A DNA stretch of 64,000 nucleotides from assembly GCA_031835245.2 (NCBI GenBank), contig JAVKOQ020000050.1:124001-188000 (forward strand). The letters run 5' to 3'. Below the pieces are notes generated by a model that made no database searches, was not told the DNA's origin, and saw only the letters and a program-made list of their open reading frames with translations. Positions 39,917 to 48,391 of the stretch are shown here, one piece after another (the stretch's first letter is position 1; every line of letters begins with the position of its first letter). Source of the stretch: Balamuthia mandrillaris (Eukaryota). Position numbers and translations under genes: made by a program.

Positions 39917-41751
39917 TCACGGACGTTGTGGTGGCTGTGGTTTTGCTCTGTCCTGCAATTTTTTTCGTGCCTGCAGTATGCCAACCCAAATGTGACTCTC
40001 CTTGAGTAGGTTGCTGAATGCGGTTGCAAGGCCTTGGTTATGCAAAGCGAGCCGTTTGCCGTCCACGTCTCGAAGCACTCGCTTTTCAAGCAACGTTTCA
40101 ATCACCACAAACAACTCGTTGGTAGCAATGGTGTCCATTGGAACTTCCTCACTCTCATTGAGCGGTAAAGTCTTGATGTCTTCAGTGAGACTCTGATGGA
40201 GCAAATATAACACTTGCGACTTTGTGATGGTTTTGCGTTCTTGTCCCTGCAGTGCTTTACACACAAGGTATGCCACCAACCTTAACGTTGGATCTCTCTC
40301 TTGCTCAAATAGTGGACGCAGGTGCTGCTCCAAGTTATAAATAACTTCATTGATGGCCTCTGTGTGTGGGTTTTAACCATAGTAAGAGTTGAAGTTTGTT
40401 TTCCAGAGTAAACAGCGGGAGAGCAGACCAACCTTCGACATCAGCTTTGGACCATGCGCCAGCGTGGTTCCGCTTCTTGGCAACAATCTTTTGGCGTACT
40501 CTGTTGATATGGCCAAGATGGCTGCCAAGCTTTTCCACCATTTCATCGGCGGCTTCCTCGCTGAAATGCTCATATGTGACGAGGTGGTCACGCACTGTTT
40601 CTATCGGAATGTACTCCATGTTTTTTACAGAAAGCCGGTACCTGTAACCTGATACTGCCATGAGTGTGAAGTTAGTGCTGTAAAGTGCAAAAAAATAAGA
40701 ACCAAAAAAAAGGGAAGGAAGCAAGAAGGAGTCAACACGTTCTTTCAGCAGCCTCACTGCATCTCGCGAGCTGGACAGGAAGACAACGCCCAACTTTCCG
40801 GCTTTGCTCAAGTCCGCTAGCACTGCGAAAAAGCGTTCCATCCCGAGCGTAGGTTGTGCTGTCTCCTTAAAGCAACTTTGAGGGTCGTGGATGATAACCA
40901 GAGGCTGGGGAGCGTCTTTGGTATGGGTTTTAGGGGCCTTCGCTTGCACTGCGTCATTAAATGCCGCTACTAAGGTGCTATGGAGAAGATTAATGTTGGT
41001 TTCACGGCATAGAGCAGAGAGCATACCTGGCGTCAAGGTTAGCGGTGTCAATTATCCCCAAGCTTTGCGCCACAAGCTTCACAAAGTCGGCGTCTCTGCC
41101 TCCACGCAAAGAGAGGTAAATGGTGTTTCGGCGTTGCTCTGCCGCCAGCAGGTATGACCACGTCTTTCCTGAGCCGCTCGGGCCAACCACTAGCTGAAAG
41201 ATGTCTCGCGACCGAAGTTCGCCCTTTAAATCGTCCATGTATGGTCGCTCGATGAGCGGCTCAAACATCTCCTTATCGACCGTAACTCCTCGATCGAATT
41301 GTTCTTGAATCATTTTGGAGCAGAACGATACCTCGTTCTTGTTGTCTTCCAAACGCTATTGTGGTGAAAATAGTCAGCAAATACAAACTCAAGGAAACAA
41401 AAATGAACGGGGAAAACGCACATCGCTGTAATACTTGGACAGGAGTGAAAGGGGCAGGATCCCCAACAGGGCAACCAGATACACTCGATAGCGTGTTGCT
41501 GAATCTTCCGGTTTGGACGGCAGATTGTTGACACAGGGCGATTCTGCGTGGCTTACGGAAGAGGTCGCCGTTAACGAGGAGGGTGTTGTGCCCTGACATA
41601 AAACACGGGAAGGATGACCTCCTCCAATCGAGGGACGGACCCAGAGCTGCCACGCGACAGTTGTGGTGAAACTGGTGTGCTTGGCCAAAATTGGCCTTGC
41701 GGCAGGGCTAGCCGGCACGGTATAGCACAAAACACGCATGCCGTTCATCAT
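39917..41751 (-). CDS. Membrane-anchored P-loop ATPase-like protein (AAA+/archaeal-ATPase-like), possibly mitochondrial, multi-exon
   Basis: Presequence-like N-terminus, one TM segment (VYLVALLGILPLSLL), Walker A GPSGSGKT, an atypical Walker B (LVIIHDP), sensor-like VVFLSS and VEKLGSHLG. Confidence 0.7.
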
Positions 41752-42396: not shown

Positions 42397-45032
42397 ATGC
42401 TGGGTGGGGTGCTCAAGCAATGTAGCATGCCGCGCGTTTGGCCCACGGCGAGTCAGGGCATTCCCAGAGGAAGCGGGCTCCCCTTTTCATCTTCTTCTGT
42501 TTGTCGCTACTCCACTTCTTCTGCCCCCGCCAAGTGGGACGCCATCATCATCGGCGCTGGCCACAACGGCCTCGTTGCTGCTTCTTATCTCGCCAAAGTT
42601 TGTTCCACTTTTGTGTTTCATCTCTTTCTTTCTCACTCTGTTTCTTTTCGAAACACCAAAAAAAAAAAGGCAGGAAAGAAAGTGTTGGTGTTGGAGCGGC
42701 GTCATGTGGTGGGAGGGGCCGCCGTGACGGAGGAGCTTCATCCGGGCTACAAGTACTCCAGGGCCTCTTATCTGTTCAGCCTCTTTCGGCCGAGCATCGT
42801 GCAGGAGCTTCGCTTGAAGGAGCACGGCCTGAAGCTCTTCCACCGCAACCCCTCTTCCTTTACTCCCATGCTGGACGGCCGATACTTGATGATGGGGGCC
42901 GATATGGCCATGAACAGAGAGGAGATCAGCAAAGTTCGTTTTGTGCTGTGCTGTGCTGTGCTGTGCTGTGCTGTGCTGTGCTGTGCTGTGCTGTGCTGTG
43001 CTGTGCTGTGCTGTGCTGTGCTGTGCTGTGCTGTGCTGTGCTGTGCTGTGCTGTGCTGTGCTGTGCTGTGCTGTGCTGTGCTGTGCTGTGCTGTGCTGTG
43101 CTGTGCTGTGCTGTGCTGTGCTGTGCTGTGCTGTGTTGTGTTGTGTTGTGTTGTTTGGAGGTTGTCTCGTCGTTCTCTTTCTTTTGTTCGTCACTCTGCG
43201 TTCTTCTTTTCTTCAGCTTGCTCTTTTTTTCTTCTGTTTGTTCTCCTTTCGTCTTTCTAACTGTTCATTTTTCTGGTTCATGGCGATTATTAGTTCTCGG
43301 CAAAAGACGCAGAAATGTATCCAAAGTATGAGGAGCAGCTCAGCAAGTTAGTTTCCTTCGTTACGCCTCTGTTGGATGAAGCACCTCCAAATCTCCACCA
43401 CAACGAGAACCTTCCGCTCTCTAAAGTTAAACTCTTTCTTCTTCTTCTGCTTCTTCCTTCTTGTTCTTCTTCTTCTTCTTCTTCTTCTTCTTCTTCTTCT
43501 TCCTCTAGTTCTTCTTCTTGTTCTTCTTCTTCTTCTTCTTCTTCTTGTTCTTGTTCTTCTTCTTCTTCTTCTTCTTCTTCTTCTTCTTCTGTTGCTGCTG
43601 CTTTCTATTCCTCCTTTTTTTCTTGTTTAGTTTCAGGACAAAACTAACAAATGTACAGAAAATGAAAGAACTTAAGTCACTTATGGACTTAGGATTACGA
43701 GCAGCCAAGTTCAGAGAAGAGATACCTGCTCTGTGGGAGCTCATGACTGCTCCCGCCAGTCAAGTTCTTGACAAGTGGTTTGGTAATATTGTCGTCCCTT
43801 GCTCGTTCGTATTGTTTCTTTCAGTCTTAACCAACCTTTTTCTAAATATAAAACAGAGTCAGAACCTTTGAAAAGCACGTTAGCCACAGATGCTATCATC
43901 GGTGCTATGACCAGCCCAAGTGTCGCTGGAAGTGGATACGTCCTGTTACATCATGGTCTCTTTTCTCACTTCTTTTCCTATCATATCCTTTATTGGTCTA
44001 TTCTCACGCTGTTTATCTTTCTCTTTCCTCTTCTCAACAAAAAGTAATGGGAGAAGTAGATGGCAAGAAAGGAGCGTGGTGCTATGTACAAGGCGGCATG
44101 GGCGCTGTCTCCCAAGCCATTGCCTCCTTTGCTAAAAGCCAAGGCGTTTCCATACAAACCAACGCTGCTGTTCGTTCTGTATTAACTCGTGCCGATGTTT
44201 CTCCTTCATCTTCTTCAAGCGATGTTGTGGGAGTAGAATTGGAGGATGGAACAAAGTTGGAGAGCAACCTAGTTCTGTCGAATGCAACTCCCGAGGTCAC
44301 TTTTCGGAAGCTTCTTTCTTCGGAGGCTCAAACACAGCTTTTGCCGGATGAGTTTAGAAGGACTATTGCTGGCTTTGACTACACTTCTCCTGTAATGAAA
44401 ATCAACATTGCTATGAACACTCTACCAAACTTTAGTTGTTGTCCTGTTAAAGGTTGCCTCCCCTCGCCCCTCTCTTCTCTCTCTCTCTTTCTGTCCCTAC
44501 TCTTTCCCCTATTCTCTTATTCTGATTCTCTCGCTTTGCCTGTGTTCTATGATCTCTGCTAAACAAAAAAAAAACCAACAGATAATAAAGCAGGACCACA
44601 ACATATGGGAACAATCCACTTTGTGGAGGACTGCGAACAAATAGAAGAGGCCTACAGAGACGCTCTCAACGGCCGCTTTTCTTCTCGGCCAGTCATTGAA
44701 ATGACAATCCCCTCTTCGGTAGACTCTACCTTGGCTCCCGCTGGCCATCATGTTGCTTCTTTGTTCGTTCAATATGCTCCTTACCATCTCAAGGTACATT
44801 TTCTTTTCTTTTATTTTGTTTCCTTTTAGAACTTAAAACACAATATAACAATAACAAAGGATGAACAATGGGACGAAGCAACAAAAGAGAAATACGCTGA
44901 TCGCGTGTTTGCGCTGATAGAGAAGTACTCTCCCGGCTTCACCGCATCCATTATTCATAGGGATATCCTGCCTCCTCCCGAGCTGGAGCGAGTCTTTGGC
45001 CTTACCGGTACGTCTCCTTTTCCTTTGCTTTG

Positions 45033-45082
<50 letters not shown>

Positions 45083-45345
45083 TCTCGCTCTCGCTCTCTC
45101 TCTCTCTTTCTCTCTCTCTTGTATATTTATTCTTACAAACAAATAACAAAAATATAGGAGGAAACATATTTCATGGAGCGATGGGGTTGAACCAGTTATA
45201 TTTATGCCGACCAGCGGCGGGCTACGGCCGCTATCGCAGCCCCATCAAAGGACTGTTTCTTTGCGGCTCTGGAGCGCATCCGGGCGGCGGCGTCATGGGC
45301 GCTCCTGGTAAGAACTGCGCTAACGCAATCCTTCAATCTCTCTGA
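42397..45345 (+). CDS. PYROXD2: PYROXD2-like FAD oxidoreductase (phytoene desaturase/CrtI-like), multi-exon
   Basis: Motifs [72 protein letters not shown] and [17 protein letters not shown]. Confidence 0.93.
42943..43135. repeat. (GTGCT)n pentanucleotide tandem repeat in a PYROXD2 intron
   Basis: About 38 near-perfect units, degrading to GTGTT units at the 3' end. Confidence 0.95.
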
Positions 45346-45383
45346 TGAACTGTTGGTTAAAGAAATATACATATCTTTTTTTT

Positions 45384-47151
45384 CTATTTTGTTTTGTTGG
45401 GTTTCTCTGAACGCTTATTGCTGCGCGAAGACCTTCTAGCTTGGAGGCGAATCCTTTTCGGTCGCTGCTCGGTCTCTTTCTCTTTTTCCTCTTCATCGGT
45501 TTCCACATCCCATCCAGTTCCCTGTAATTCCTCCGCCGGTCCGCTGTTGGCGGTCCGGTCAACGCCATGTTGCACGGAGCGCTTCCTTTTGCCCTGCAGA
45601 GGGTCTTCTTGATCAGAGCACACCTCTTCGACAATAACTTCGACCTGCGTTCTGTCAATGCAATCCTGTAGGAGAGAGAGAGAGAGAGAGAGAGAGTGGG
45701 ATGAGACAGAAGAACAATGCACTATAAAAATAATAAAAAGGGTTGATCTTGAGAGAGAGGAGAAAGAGAGAGAGAGAGAGAGAGAGAGGACAAACCAGTG
45801 TTCTTTGGTTGAATGTTTGAGGCACAGGTCGAACCCGCATGACCCGCTTTTGCGCTGTTCTAGGTGCAATGTAGGTTTTCCGTTCGGTGTTCCCTTCCAG
45901 CAGGGCGATGATGTCCTGGATGGCCCACCCAGCACTGATCAACGGGCACACCCCTATCTTGGTCTTCTTTCCCTCTATTTCCTTATCCCCAGGGAGCATG
46001 AACGACATAGGAATGCCGCTGTAGGAGGAGAAGACGCCAGCCGAGTGGAAAAGAGGCACCACCGTGGTGTAGAAATCCGAGAACTGCCCAACTGTAACCG
46101 ACATGCCGGTGATGGTGGAGTCCGCCGAGGTCTGGAGGGGGTACAGGAAGTCCTTGTTCTGATCGTTCTTCAGGACGGAGAGCACGGTGTTGGAAAGCCG
46201 GTCCTGGGTGCCTTTGTAGAGGCGTGGGGTCATTCCCTCCCGAACAAGGAAGCGATTGGCGATGACCAGACGGAGCTTTGGAAGTGGCAGACCGTACTTG
46301 GCAGCCTTTTTGGCAAAGGTGGTAAACGAGTATGGTGCTGGAGCGATGGCTCCACAAAGCAGGTCGGTTATCATTTTGACGGCGTTGACCGAAAAGTCGT
46401 CTGGGTTGCAGGGAACCAGCAGCTTATCGCAAGAGCACAGGGCCATCCTCGTGTACACCGTAAAGGCGGGGTTGGTATCTGCAAAGACCACCCAGCTGGC
46501 AGCGCCTCCGTCGTTCTGCGAGGTGACCTCCTCGATGAATCGGCGCATCATCGTGTGCACCACGTAATACGGCTGGGGGCTCCCTTTAAGAACGGTCTTC
46601 ACTCCTGCTTTGTCTTCCAGCTGGGAGGCGATCATGTCCAGTTTGTTGTCTCCAGGCAGGAGGTAGACGTTTTCCGGCACATAGTCAGAGTAGTTCTTCG
46701 GTTGGATGAGATAATCCTGCGCAGGTCTCTTCATTTGTTGGTCCAAATTCTCACCGATATACCTTGCTATGGTGGTTCTTCCTTCGCTCATCAGCTCTTC
46801 CGCAGCCCTGAAGCCAGAAGGCCCACCTCCCAAGAAGAAGGAGGTGCTATTGGCTTGCGGACACATATCCATCACTAGGACTTTTCGATCAGGGAATTGC
46901 CTGGCGTATTCGCAAACGATGTTGAAAGTCAAAGTGCTCTTTCCTACTCCACCCTTATTGTTCCACATCACGAATGTTTGGGTGTTGTGAGCGGCTGAAG
47001 ACGAAGAAGAAGAAGAACATGAAGAAGCTGAGGTAGAAGAAGAAGCGACGGCAGAAGAAGCACCAGACACAGATGATGGATTACGGGATGTGGCTATGAC
47101 TTCCATGCTTGTATGTTTGTTAAAATAAACAAAATTGTTGGTACCATCCAT
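45384..47151 (-). CDS. Bacterial-type ParA/Soj-family ATPase with a Ser-rich N-terminal extension and a basic/acidic C-terminal exon (exons 47151 or 47106 to 45796, and 45665-45384)
   Basis: Deviant Walker A WNNKGGVGKST, A' motif VLVMDMCPQANS, YLLPGD, Walker B VVFADTNP, CDKLLVPC and VIANR. A phase-0 GTTTG...CTACAG intron (45795-45666) joins the domain to a 93-aa tail containing KRKR and RPKRIR. Confidence 0.9.
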
Positions 47152-47185
47152 GTGGATGCACCCAAGTACTGTTCGGTGGTATAAA

Positions 47186-47317
47186 CCAGTAGCCAGGACC
47201 CATGCTACTGGCTACCATCCTTTCTAAAAAAAACATCCAGTAGCCAGGACCCATGCTGCTGGCTACCATCCTTTCCAAAAAAACAACCCAGTAGCCAGGA
47301 CCCGTGCTGCTGGCTCC
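47186..47317. repeat. Three tandem 51-bp repeats with an internal palindrome, between the ParA-like gene and the divergent ORF
   Basis: Units start at 47186, 47237 and 47288: CCAGTAGCCAGGACCC(A/G)TGCT(A/G)CTGGCT(A/C)C followed by an A-rich linker. Internal arms are GTAGCCAG/CTGGCTAC. Confidence 0.92.
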
Positions 47318-47318
47318 G

Positions 47319-48293
47319 ATGCTATTTCAAATTAGGAGCCGAAGCAAGCCAGGCCAGGTATCCATGACTCTTGCTGGTAATCAAAGGCAGAGTGTTTCTG
47401 ACAAAGCAACCCCAAATGAATCCCAGGTAAAACAAAACAATACATGCAGACAACATGGAGGGTCCAGGACAAGAGGACTTGATTGGGTTGCTGGCTTATA
47501 TCAAACGTCTGACTTCTCCACTCTACTCAGCACTACATGGCCGCTGCAGGAAACTCCATTATCGCAACCTCCCGCGCCATCACCGCAGGCTCCAGAACCA
47601 GGTCCCGCAGTGACAAGAACAGCGGCACAACCACAACCATGCTCACCACCCGGTTTCCTGGCAGGCCTACAGGGGACAGAAGAAGAGAACTGGTTCGGCC
47701 CTCTGCGGCAAGAATTGAGCCGGTTCATTGACGTGACTTCGCAACACAACCCAGGAAGTCAGGGCTGGCGCAAGGCTTTAGAGCACGCAGAAGAGTTGCG
47801 TAAGCATCTTGAGACCTGCTTGACGCCACCTCGCTTCTCTCGTTACCACTCCACCATCCCCTTTAATCACCCTCTCGTCATCCTCATTCTTCCTAAACAA
47901 CTGCAACAGCAGAACGCAGGCAACGAACCAATTCCGCTCAAGACCAAGACGACGTACAAGTTCCGCACCGAACTGTCCTTTCCGGCCCACCAACCTGCCT
48001 CCCTAACAATCTCTTGGCAGCCAGACGTAACGGAGTCATTCCCATTCGATTGTATGCTTGATGGCTTTAGGAACACGCCCACCACCAGGCGTCTGGGAGA
48101 AGAGTTTCGTATTTGTTTTGATGTTAAAGCAGGAACTCCCTCGCCGACGGCGACAAGCACGGCAAATCGGTATTGCTCCCTCGTCGTTGCTGAAGGGAAT
48201 GAAACTGTGCTGTTTACCGTTCGTTTCGCAGTGTACAGCTCAGCGGGATACAAGAAAGAGATGAAAAGAAGAAAATCCAATATTACAAAATAA
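47319..48293 (+). CDS. Orphan protein: Pro-rich N-terminus, helical middle, beta-rich C-terminal domain and basic tail; start (47319 or 47364) and introns uncertain
   Basis: Stop-free frame of more than 300 codons in non-repetitive sequence, ending VRFAVYSSAGYKKEMKRRKSNITK. No family recognised. Confidence 0.6.
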   Translation: MLFQIRSRSKPGQVSMTLAGNQRQSVSDKATPNESQVKQNNTCRQHGGSRTRGLDWVAGLYQTSDFSTLLSTTWPLQETPLSQPPAPSPQAPEPGPAVTRTAAQPQPCSPPGFLAGLQGTEEENWFGPLRQELSRFIDVTSQHNPGSQGWRKALEHAEELRKHLETCLTPPRFSRYHSTIPFNHPLVILILPKQLQQQNAGNEPIPLKTKTTYKFRTELSFPAHQPASLTISWQPDVTESFPFDCMLDGFRNTPTTRRLGEEFRICFDVKAGTPSPTATSTANRYCSLVVAEGNETVLFTVRFAVYSSAGYKKEMKRRKSNITK

Positions 48294-48336
48294 ATACAAA
48301 CGCCTTCCTTCTTCTTCTTTTTTCTACATTTTGTGT

Positions 48337-48391
48337 CTCTTTCTTTCTTGTCGTTTCCTTCTCTCTAGTCGTTTCTTTCTGTCTTCTCGTT

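What the first reader, a model, noticed from the sequence alone, without database searches (positions are those of the whole stretch)
45384..48293. Partition-like cassette in a eukaryote: ParA/Soj ATPase, palindromic tandem repeats and a divergent basic orphan protein
Seen in the sequence: a ParA-family ATPase gene (deviant Walker A KGGVGKS, DxCPQAN, Walker B ADTNP) and an unknown ORF are transcribed divergently from a spacer of under 200 bp. Three 51-bp palindromic repeats fill most of that spacer. Both predicted proteins end in basic NLS-like clusters, and the block from 45.8 to 48.3 kb lacks the long microsatellites typical of neighbouring genes. Established: plasmid and phage partition loci combine a ParA ATPase, a DNA-binding adaptor and iterated cis sites that often overlap the promoter. 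Inference: this may be a horizontally acquired, domesticated ATPase/adaptor/repeat module acting in the amoeba nucleus, in segregation, as mobile-element or viral cargo, or in defence.
Basis: partly seen in the sequence, partly recalled or inferred. Interest (0 to 1): 0.88.

Follow-up and report, generated by a model that had tools for sequence, protein, structure and literature searches.

The report
Bacterial anti-phage ATPase kept by amoebae
An amoeba carries an intron-containing gene from a bacterial ATPase family in which one member is known to block phages, head-to-head with an unknown gene whose only relative found is in the one other amoeba that has the ATPase, so this is likely a borrowed antiviral gene rather than a plasmid-style DNA-partition cassette.

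Summary
The window is Balamuthia mandrillaris. The ParA-like gene, three 51-bp palindromic repeats and divergent unknown gene are real; the spacer is about 350 bp, not under 200. The partition reading fails. The ATPase is not a Soj/partition ParA: it falls (100/100) in a family of stand-alone ~350-aa bacterial ATPases with no ParB neighbour (0 of 16 loci), patchy, on prophages and small plasmids. That family includes an E. coli orthologue of GiPD474, a single-gene anti-phage protein (PMC12724215). A profile built only from bacterial members scores the amoeba protein at 291 bits, the GiPD474 orthologue 280, Soj 40-45. The amoeba gene has an intron and a new basic tail, and is 70% identical to a transcribed Stenamoeba stenopodia protein. 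The unknown gene's only credible relative among 1.84 billion representatives is also from Stenamoeba. Best reading: an old, domesticated bacterial defence ATPase, likely antiviral (untested); partnership with the neighbour and binding to the repeats are open. Two environmental relatives lack the neighbour. No earlier scan note described this.

The parts
45796..47106 (-). ATPase gene exon 1: Ser-rich N-terminus, GiPD474-family ParA-like ATPase core (residues ~42-401) and start of a C-terminal extension shared with the amoeba-side clade
46936..46956 (-). Deviant Walker A KGGVGKS inside the family signature WNNKGGVGKS
   Evidence: W48-S57 at 97-100% in the 121-row alignment
45666..45795 (-). 130-nt GT-AG intron with host-type AG microsatellites
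   Evidence: spliced product equals NCBI protein P0004
45384..45665 (-). ATPase gene exon 2: acidic then basic low-complexity tail (NLS-like, predicted)
   Evidence: in-frame 3-nt insertions in strain X4
47107..47454 (.). 348-bp spacer between the two start codons, likely a bidirectional promoter
47186..47338 (.). Three tandem 51-bp units with an interrupted palindrome GTAGCCAG-N11-CTGGCTAC (intact in units 1-2, decayed in 3)
   Evidence: covered by contigs of samples S2 and S3
47455..47486 (+). Unknown gene (QOT17_007144) exon 1
47487..47530 (+). 44-nt intron of the unknown gene
   Evidence: strain insertion at 47492 lies inside it
47531..48293 (+). Unknown gene exon 2: Pro-rich linker, predicted helical hairpin, predicted beta-sandwich, basic C-terminal helix (VYSSxGYKK shared with Stenamoeba)

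Best explanation
The ATPase gene belongs to a bacterial family of stand-alone ParA-like ATPases that includes an orthologue of the anti-phage protein GiPD474; it was likely taken up once by horizontal transfer, has gained an intron and a basic tail, and likely serves the amoeba as an antiviral factor. Shown: family membership, the two-exon structure, presence in three Balamuthia samples and a 70%-identical transcribed orthologue in Stenamoeba. Inferred mechanism: like other ParA/MinD proteins it would dimerise on ATP and bind DNA or a protein partner; the new basic tail would take it to the nucleus or to a viral factory; there it would stall viral DNA replication or the infected cell. GiPD474's own mechanism is unknown. 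The head-to-head gene would be a co-inherited regulator or cofactor, and the palindromic repeats would be binding sites in the shared promoter, not a centromere. Odds by step: family and bacterial origin about 0.9; antiviral or conflict role in the amoeba about 0.5; functional link to the neighbour about 0.35.
For: (1) Family. The E. coli protein in L020/L021 matches the paper's description of gipd474: 1,086 bp, GGVGKT at residues 29-34, primer arms at the two gene ends 28/40 and 31/39, internal primer 21/23, downstream of a phage repressor. Balamuthia vs this protein: 30.5% over 272 aa, E 2e-33; vs the ParA/Soj/MinD-like controls E 2e-4 to 0.3 (7 of 10 controls hit). A profile of 40 presumed bacterial members covers Balamuthia over positions 4-353 of 355 at 291 bits, the E. 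coli orthologue at 280, Soj at 40-45. Tree of 60 rows: the family is one side of a 6.2-long branch, 100/100; the six amoeba-side rows form a 100/100 clade inside it. (2) Bacterial relatives look like cargo, not partition genes: ParB in 0 of 16 loci vs 4 of 4 Soj loci; 4 of 121 genomes in one genus, 6 of 300 in one class, 71 of 5,426 E. coli genomes for the GiPD474 subgroup; just downstream of the repressor in both annotated phage loci opened; 153 plasmid records, many of 3-15 kb. (3) Domestication: GT-AG intron; 6 of 8 listed exon-1 strain differences are synonymous; Stenamoeba transcript product 70-71% identical; a basic tail in 3 of 4 full-ended clade members. (4) The neighbour's only credible relative is also from Stenamoeba (E 7e-8 among 1.84 billion; source; score 151 vs shuffled maximum 63). 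(5) Precedent: a bacterial anti-phage TIR was domesticated in Dictyostelium (PMC13142454, abstract).
Against: No test of antiviral activity exists for any amoeba member. The amoeba clade groups with other bacterial branches (98/98), not with the GiPD474 branch, so activity is carried over from a relative at about 30% identity, known from one paper, and through an E. coli proxy rather than the Salmonella sequence itself. Defence-island enrichment is modest: PADLOC hits at E <= 1e-15 in 8 of 16 family loci vs 4 of 16 arbitrary loci (p 0.14); after dropping ABC-transporter cross-hits 6 vs 2 (p 0.11), and 6 vs 1 (p 0.04) if a partial protease hit is also dropped. The bacterial rows of the tree were picked as top hits of the amoeba proteins. 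No homologue of the neighbour lies in environmental loci L052 (about 780 bp upstream held) or L053, and their upstream repeats are unrelated in sequence. RNA reads were shallow: about 2 reads on the ATPase in each of two runs, none on the neighbour's coding region, flanking PYROXD2 exons at depth 1-9. 70% identity across two amoeba groups also fits a housekeeping role.
Confidence: 0.5

Rival explanations
1. The ATPase came from the same bacterial family but was recruited to a non-defence job in the amoeba, such as nucleotide-dependent positioning or nuclear DNA handling; the neighbour and repeats are incidental.
For: High conservation (70%) between Centramoebida and Thecamoebida; mostly synonymous change in the core; ParA/MinD switches are generic positioning modules (established knowledge).
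Against: No Acanthamoeba or other named amoebozoan hit among the top 120 rows of either search, which is patchy for a core function; the neighbour shares the same two-species profile.
Confidence: 0.25
2. The ATPase, or the gene pair, is cargo that moved between amoebae and giant viruses or another mobile element, and serves inter-viral competition or is a domesticated viral insert.
For: Two clade members lie on gene-dense environmental contigs: L052 is intronless and 33% GC; L053 has a weak F-box/ankyrin neighbour and two AAAATTGA motifs (a giant-virus promoter motif, recalled). They pair with each other in the tree (96/89).
Against: No relative in IMG/VR viral contigs in four scans with clade or neighbour queries. 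L053's gene appears to have an intron and its flanks have microsatellites. The Balamuthia pair lies between ordinary host genes; the 25 longest of 94 inverted repeats around it are all microsatellite.
Confidence: 0.13
3. A true partition-like module: ParA motor, the neighbour as DNA-binding adaptor, the 51-bp repeats as centromere-like site.
For: Three-part layout; co-occurrence of both genes in Stenamoeba; an invariant Arg (R285) aligns with the Arg of Soj's D-x-R motif, which I recall as a DNA-binding residue; short tandem repeats also lie upstream of the gene in L052 and L053.
Against: Not a partition-clade ParA; relatives have no ParB; the neighbour has no Pfam or NCBIfam match; the repeats occur once in 64 kb inside a chromosome between host genes; divergent rather than operon-like layout.
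Confidence: 0.07

Closest known systems
GiPD474 (STM474_RS13505), single-gene ParA-like anti-phage protein of Salmonella Gifsy-1 (PMC12724215)
   Same: Same family by profile and tree, through the E. coli orthologue: WNNKGGVGK, DxCPQxN, DxNPxF..YT motifs, ~350-aa core longer than Soj, no ParB.
   Different: Eukaryotic, with an intron, Ser-rich N-terminus and ~130-aa C-terminal extension with basic tail; a different sub-branch (about 30% identity); head-to-head with an unknown gene; no activity data.
Type I partition systems (Soj/ParA-ParB-parS; type Ib ParA-RHH adaptor-repeats)
   Same: Deviant Walker A ATPase beside a second gene and iterated DNA.
   Different: ATPase far below the ParA_partition cut-off and on a separate long branch; no ParB in relatives; no replicon.
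TirBCD of Dictyostelium (PMC13142454)
   Same: Bacterial anti-phage protein moved into an amoebozoan genome without its bacterial context (abstract).
   Different: TIR NADase, biochemically tested, described as a recent transfer; here a P-loop ATPase shared by two amoeba groups, untested.
p53/CP2-type Ig-fold DNA-binding domains (for the neighbour; resemblance recalled)
   Same: Predicted beta-sandwich ending in a strand and a basic helix; Cep-1 appears at Z 4.2, rmsd 4.5, 128 of 143 residues aligned.
   Different: Model pLDDT 40; 38 generic Ig-like folds rank as high or higher; no sequence match.

Membership tests
GiPD474-like stand-alone ParA-type ATPases | AAA_31/ParA P-loop with GGVGK[TS] | tested here: met
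GiPD474-like stand-alone ParA-type ATPases | Homology over the whole ~350-aa core, including the part beyond the Soj fold | tested here: met
   profile positions 4-353 of 355, 291 bits; E. coli orthologue 280 bits
GiPD474-like stand-alone ParA-type ATPases | Same side of the tree as the GiPD474 orthologue, apart from Soj/MinD | tested here: met
   100/100; proxy identified by length, motif position and primers; the Salmonella sequence itself was not held
GiPD474-like stand-alone ParA-type ATPases | Single gene without ParB, in prophage or defence contexts (bacterial relatives) | tested here: met
   0 of 16 with ParB; after repressor; defence enrichment only modest
GiPD474-like stand-alone ParA-type ATPases | Reduces virus plating | not testable with these tools
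   shown only for GiPD474 (PMC12724215)
Type I partition system | Deviant Walker A ATPase | tested here: met
Type I partition system | ATPase of the partition ParA/Soj families | tested here: not met
   43 bits vs cut-off 180 (NF041546), far below PrgP and RepA cut-offs
Type I partition system | Adjacent ParB-type adaptor | tested here: not met
   no ParB Pfam/NCBIfam match for the neighbour or its Stenamoeba relative, while ParB is detected at 4 of 4 Soj loci
Type I partition system | Adjacent DNA-binding adaptor of another fold | tested here: inconclusive
   low-confidence models, pLDDT 52 and 40
Type I partition system | Repeats bound by the adaptor act as centromere | not testable with these tools
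   repeats real; binding untested
p53/CP2-like Ig-fold transcription factors (neighbour) | Ig-fold DNA-binding domain with C-terminal recognition helix | tested here: inconclusive

The most novel reading that the evidence does not exclude
Two groups of amoebae share a nuclear antiviral module: a domesticated GiPD474-family phage-defence ATPase plus a new Ig-fold DNA-binding partner, co-regulated through palindromic repeats in their shared promoter and aimed at giant viruses. It would be the first eukaryotic member of this defence family and a new amoeba immune pathway.
Probability: 0.2. Interest if true: 0.88.

Novelty: new variant of a known kind. Interest (0 to 1): 0.64.

Why it matters
Eukaryotic immune genes borrowed from bacterial anti-phage systems are an active question, and amoebae are the main hosts of giant viruses with few known defences. 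This adds a family with no eukaryotic member in the papers searched, kept at 70% identity across two amoeba groups, and gives a cheap test by phage plating. It also shows that GiPD474, described only from Enterobacteriaceae prophages, belongs to a much wider family annotated everywhere as 'ParA'. If the neighbour is a partner, it offers a way into a mechanism that is unknown even in bacteria.

Tried and rejected
No whole genome was held, so no search for second copies, paralogues or an empty site in Balamuthia. Run search: no RNA holder listed. Complex prediction of ATPase with neighbour: no verdict, the job was not folded. Structure of the neighbour: two single-sequence models, pLDDT 52 and 40, made before its relative was found; Foldseek had no match at E <= 0.001, VIA-align gave only helical hairpins (best Z 6.8) or generic Ig-like folds (best Z 5.2); ESM Atlas gave no usable feature hit and TM under 0.5 by query; PDB sequence search with the pair gave nothing under E 0.3. 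P0233 (E 9.6e-4) rejected: 49-residue match to a clostridial repeat protein, E 0.18 with the pair profile. PADLOC has no model for this ATPase (only short P-loop hits). Viral contigs: nothing for the clade, the neighbour or an L053 flank protein. The palindrome pattern gave 7 isolated viral matches with no array, taken as chance. A shared TAGCCA between the Balamuthia and L052 repeats is chance (199 of 500 shuffles; a first version of that test was faulty); the L053 match (10 of 500) is a poly-A run. The long 324-aa reading of the neighbour was dropped for NCBI's 264-aa model. The microsatellite gap was rejected as a sign of recent insertion. GC3 values rest on few exons and were not used. P0238 was left out of the tree as a near-copy of P0144; 40 of 213 bacterial proteins were kept after dereplication.

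Full report
Source and anatomy. Both proteins match NCBI proteins of Balamuthia mandrillaris, QOT17_007143 (530 aa) and QOT17_007144 (264 aa). The ATPase gene has exons 47106-45796 and 45665-45384 around a 130-nt GT-AG intron; the neighbour has exons 47455-47486 and 47531-48293. The start codons are 348 bp apart. Three 51-bp units at 47186-47338 are 100/90/75% alike, unique in the window, and carry an 8-bp inverted repeat with an 11-bp spacer in units 1 and 2. The microsatellite-free block is only the seventh longest in the window.

Other strains and expression. Contigs of two other samples cover all 30 bins of 44600-48340, including the repeat region, so the arrangement is not a one-strain accident; contigs cannot give the copy number. 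Of the 40 differences shown (175 in all), 6 of 8 in ATPase exon 1 are synonymous, 3 of 10 in its tail exon, 2 of 4 in the neighbour. Of 12 indels shown (20 in all), those inside annotated exons keep the frame (3-nt insertions; a 2+1 loss in one X4 contig), while frame-breaking ones fall outside. RNA depth was very low, with 3-5% of each run read: about 2 reads on the ATPase per run, none on the neighbour's coding region, depth 1-9 on upstream exons; most laid reads were spurious matches to a GAA run. Both Stenamoeba relatives come from an assembled transcriptome.

What the ATPase is. Among 5,988 candidates, 1,120 passed; of the top 120, four exceed 40% identity: itself, Stenamoeba stenopodia (71%) and two environmental proteins (46%, 41%). 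The other 116 are 30-36% identical, mostly about 350 aa, and prokaryotic where named. A profile search added one more environmental member. No Acanthamoeba hit appeared in either list, although it is the closer relative by NCBI taxonomy; these searches are word-indexed and length-limited, so this is not proof of absence. The protein scores far below every partition-ParA cut-off.

The bacterial family. In 16 genome loci no neighbour is ParB (111 flank ORFs), whereas 4 of 4 Soj loci from the same genomes have it; 29 more flank ORFs from 8 short loci also gave none (one of these repeats the context of L008). Neighbours include a complete Lamassu system, PDC-S21/S01, a type II restriction system and an McrBC-like pair. 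Against 16 arbitrary 10-kb loci the enrichment is modest: 8 vs 4 raw, 6 vs 2 or 6 vs 1 after removing cross-hits, p 0.14, 0.11, 0.04. The family is patchy: 4 of 121, 6 of 300 and 71 of 5,426 genomes. It occurs in 153 plasmid records and in temperate phages right after the repressor (3 of 7 phage records opened: annotated; unannotated, with a repressor-like ORF by my reading).

The link to a tested defence gene. PMC12724215 (abstract, second half of Results, Discussion, passages and primer supplement read) describes gipd474, a single 1,086-bp gene in the Gifsy-1 immunity region. It has an AAA_31/ParA domain with GGVGKT at residues 29-34 and cuts plating of T4 and Alf5 by about 5 logs; its mechanism is unknown and no ATPase mutant is reported in what I read. 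I could not fetch that sequence. The E. coli prophage gene in L020/L021 has the same length, the motif at the same residues, and the paper's primers at both ends and inside, so I use it as the orthologue. A profile of 40 presumed bacterial members, without amoeba or GiPD474-like rows, scores Balamuthia 291 bits, Stenamoeba 277, the orthologue 280 and Soj 40-45. In a 60-row tree the family is split from 10 ParA/Soj/MinD-like controls at 100/100, and six amoeba-side rows form a 100/100 clade on a 1.7-long stem inside it, closer to other bacterial branches than to the GiPD474 branch. Some controls are long branches and the bacterial rows were chosen by similarity to the amoeba proteins, so the exact donor is not resolved. 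The amoeba-side members that are complete share a C-terminal extension that bacteria lack.

The neighbour. HMMER over 1.84 billion representatives gave three hits: itself, a 246-aa Stenamoeba stenopodia protein (32%, E 7e-8, residues 11-197 of 204) and a marginal repeat protein. So both genes have their best or only relative in the same species from another amoeba group. This is suggestive, but I had no control for how often Balamuthia orphans map only to Stenamoeba, and linkage there is unknown. Two environmental loci with the ATPase have no homologue of the neighbour. Low-confidence models suggest a helical hairpin and a beta-sandwich ending in a basic helix; the conserved end VYSSxGYKK reminds me of CP2/Grainyhead domains, a recalled resemblance that no call confirms.

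The repeats. They look like sites for a dimeric DNA-binding protein in a shared promoter (inference). Short tandem repeats also precede the gene in L052 (4 x 22 nt, about 60 nt upstream) and L053 (21-nt units, but also duplicated before the previous gene); the sequences are unrelated.

Mechanism. Shown: family, gene structure, conservation. Inferred: an ATP-switched dimer that keeps the family's invariant residues, including an Arg aligned with Soj's D-x-R (DNA-binding role recalled), carried by its basic tail to the nucleus or viral factory, where it would block viral replication or halt the cell. I put antiviral function at about 0.5, a non-defence job at 0.25, viral or mobile cargo at 0.13 and partition at 0.07.

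Novelty. Domestication of bacterial defence genes in amoebae has a precedent (PMC13142454, abstract and a term search; no mention of Balamuthia, Stenamoeba or ParA). GiPD474 appears in one paper of the library. Searches for a eukaryotic or amoebal member found none (listings only); the Balamuthia annotation paper PMC10471605 has no 'ParA' or 'partition' in its main text (supplements not read). Subscription journals are largely missing from the library. This scan had no note on this genome or idea; one note on other DNA places a family member in a window of integron cassettes (not checked). Verdict: new variant of a known kind, interest 0.64.

Noticed in passing
L001:1385-6050, L008:4009-8096, L054: The bacterial ATPase sits right after a ribonucleotide reductase operon (L001) or between its small and large subunit genes (L008, L054 same context) in Bacteroidota; may hint at a nucleotide-pool link or an insertion hotspot.
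   Followed up: no
L007:345-3659: The ATPase is the last gene of a tight operon: multi-ubiquitin, unknown, ThiF/E1-like; possibly a ubiquitin-like defence system that uses this ATPase.
   Followed up: no
L053:1-10076: Gene-dense contig with weak F-box/ankyrin and bestrophin-like genes, two AAAATTGA motifs, a ~160-bp promoter segment duplicated before two genes, and a clade ATPase with an apparent intron and divergent 3' half; protist or giant virus unresolved.
   Followed up: partly
L052:259-721: Intronless clade ATPase on a 33% GC contig, preceded by about 14 copies of a 9-nt unit and 4 copies of a 22-nt unit.
   Followed up: partly
window 39917-41355 (- strand): Another P-loop gene (weak AAA_22, E 4e-4, GPSGSGKT) in a microsatellite-poor stretch; origin not examined.
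   Followed up: no
plasmid hits H10-H37: The family is on many small plasmids (2.9-15 kb; Salmonella, Acinetobacter, Erwinia) annotated as 'ParA'; likely misannotated defence cargo.
   Followed up: no
protein P0211: Several conserved Gly positions read as Trp, as expected if the source uses UGA for glycine and was translated with UGA as Trp.
   Followed up: no
protein P0007, alignment A1 columns 227-241: A 15-residue insertion before Walker B looks like a read-through intron, suggesting a eukaryotic source.
   Followed up: no
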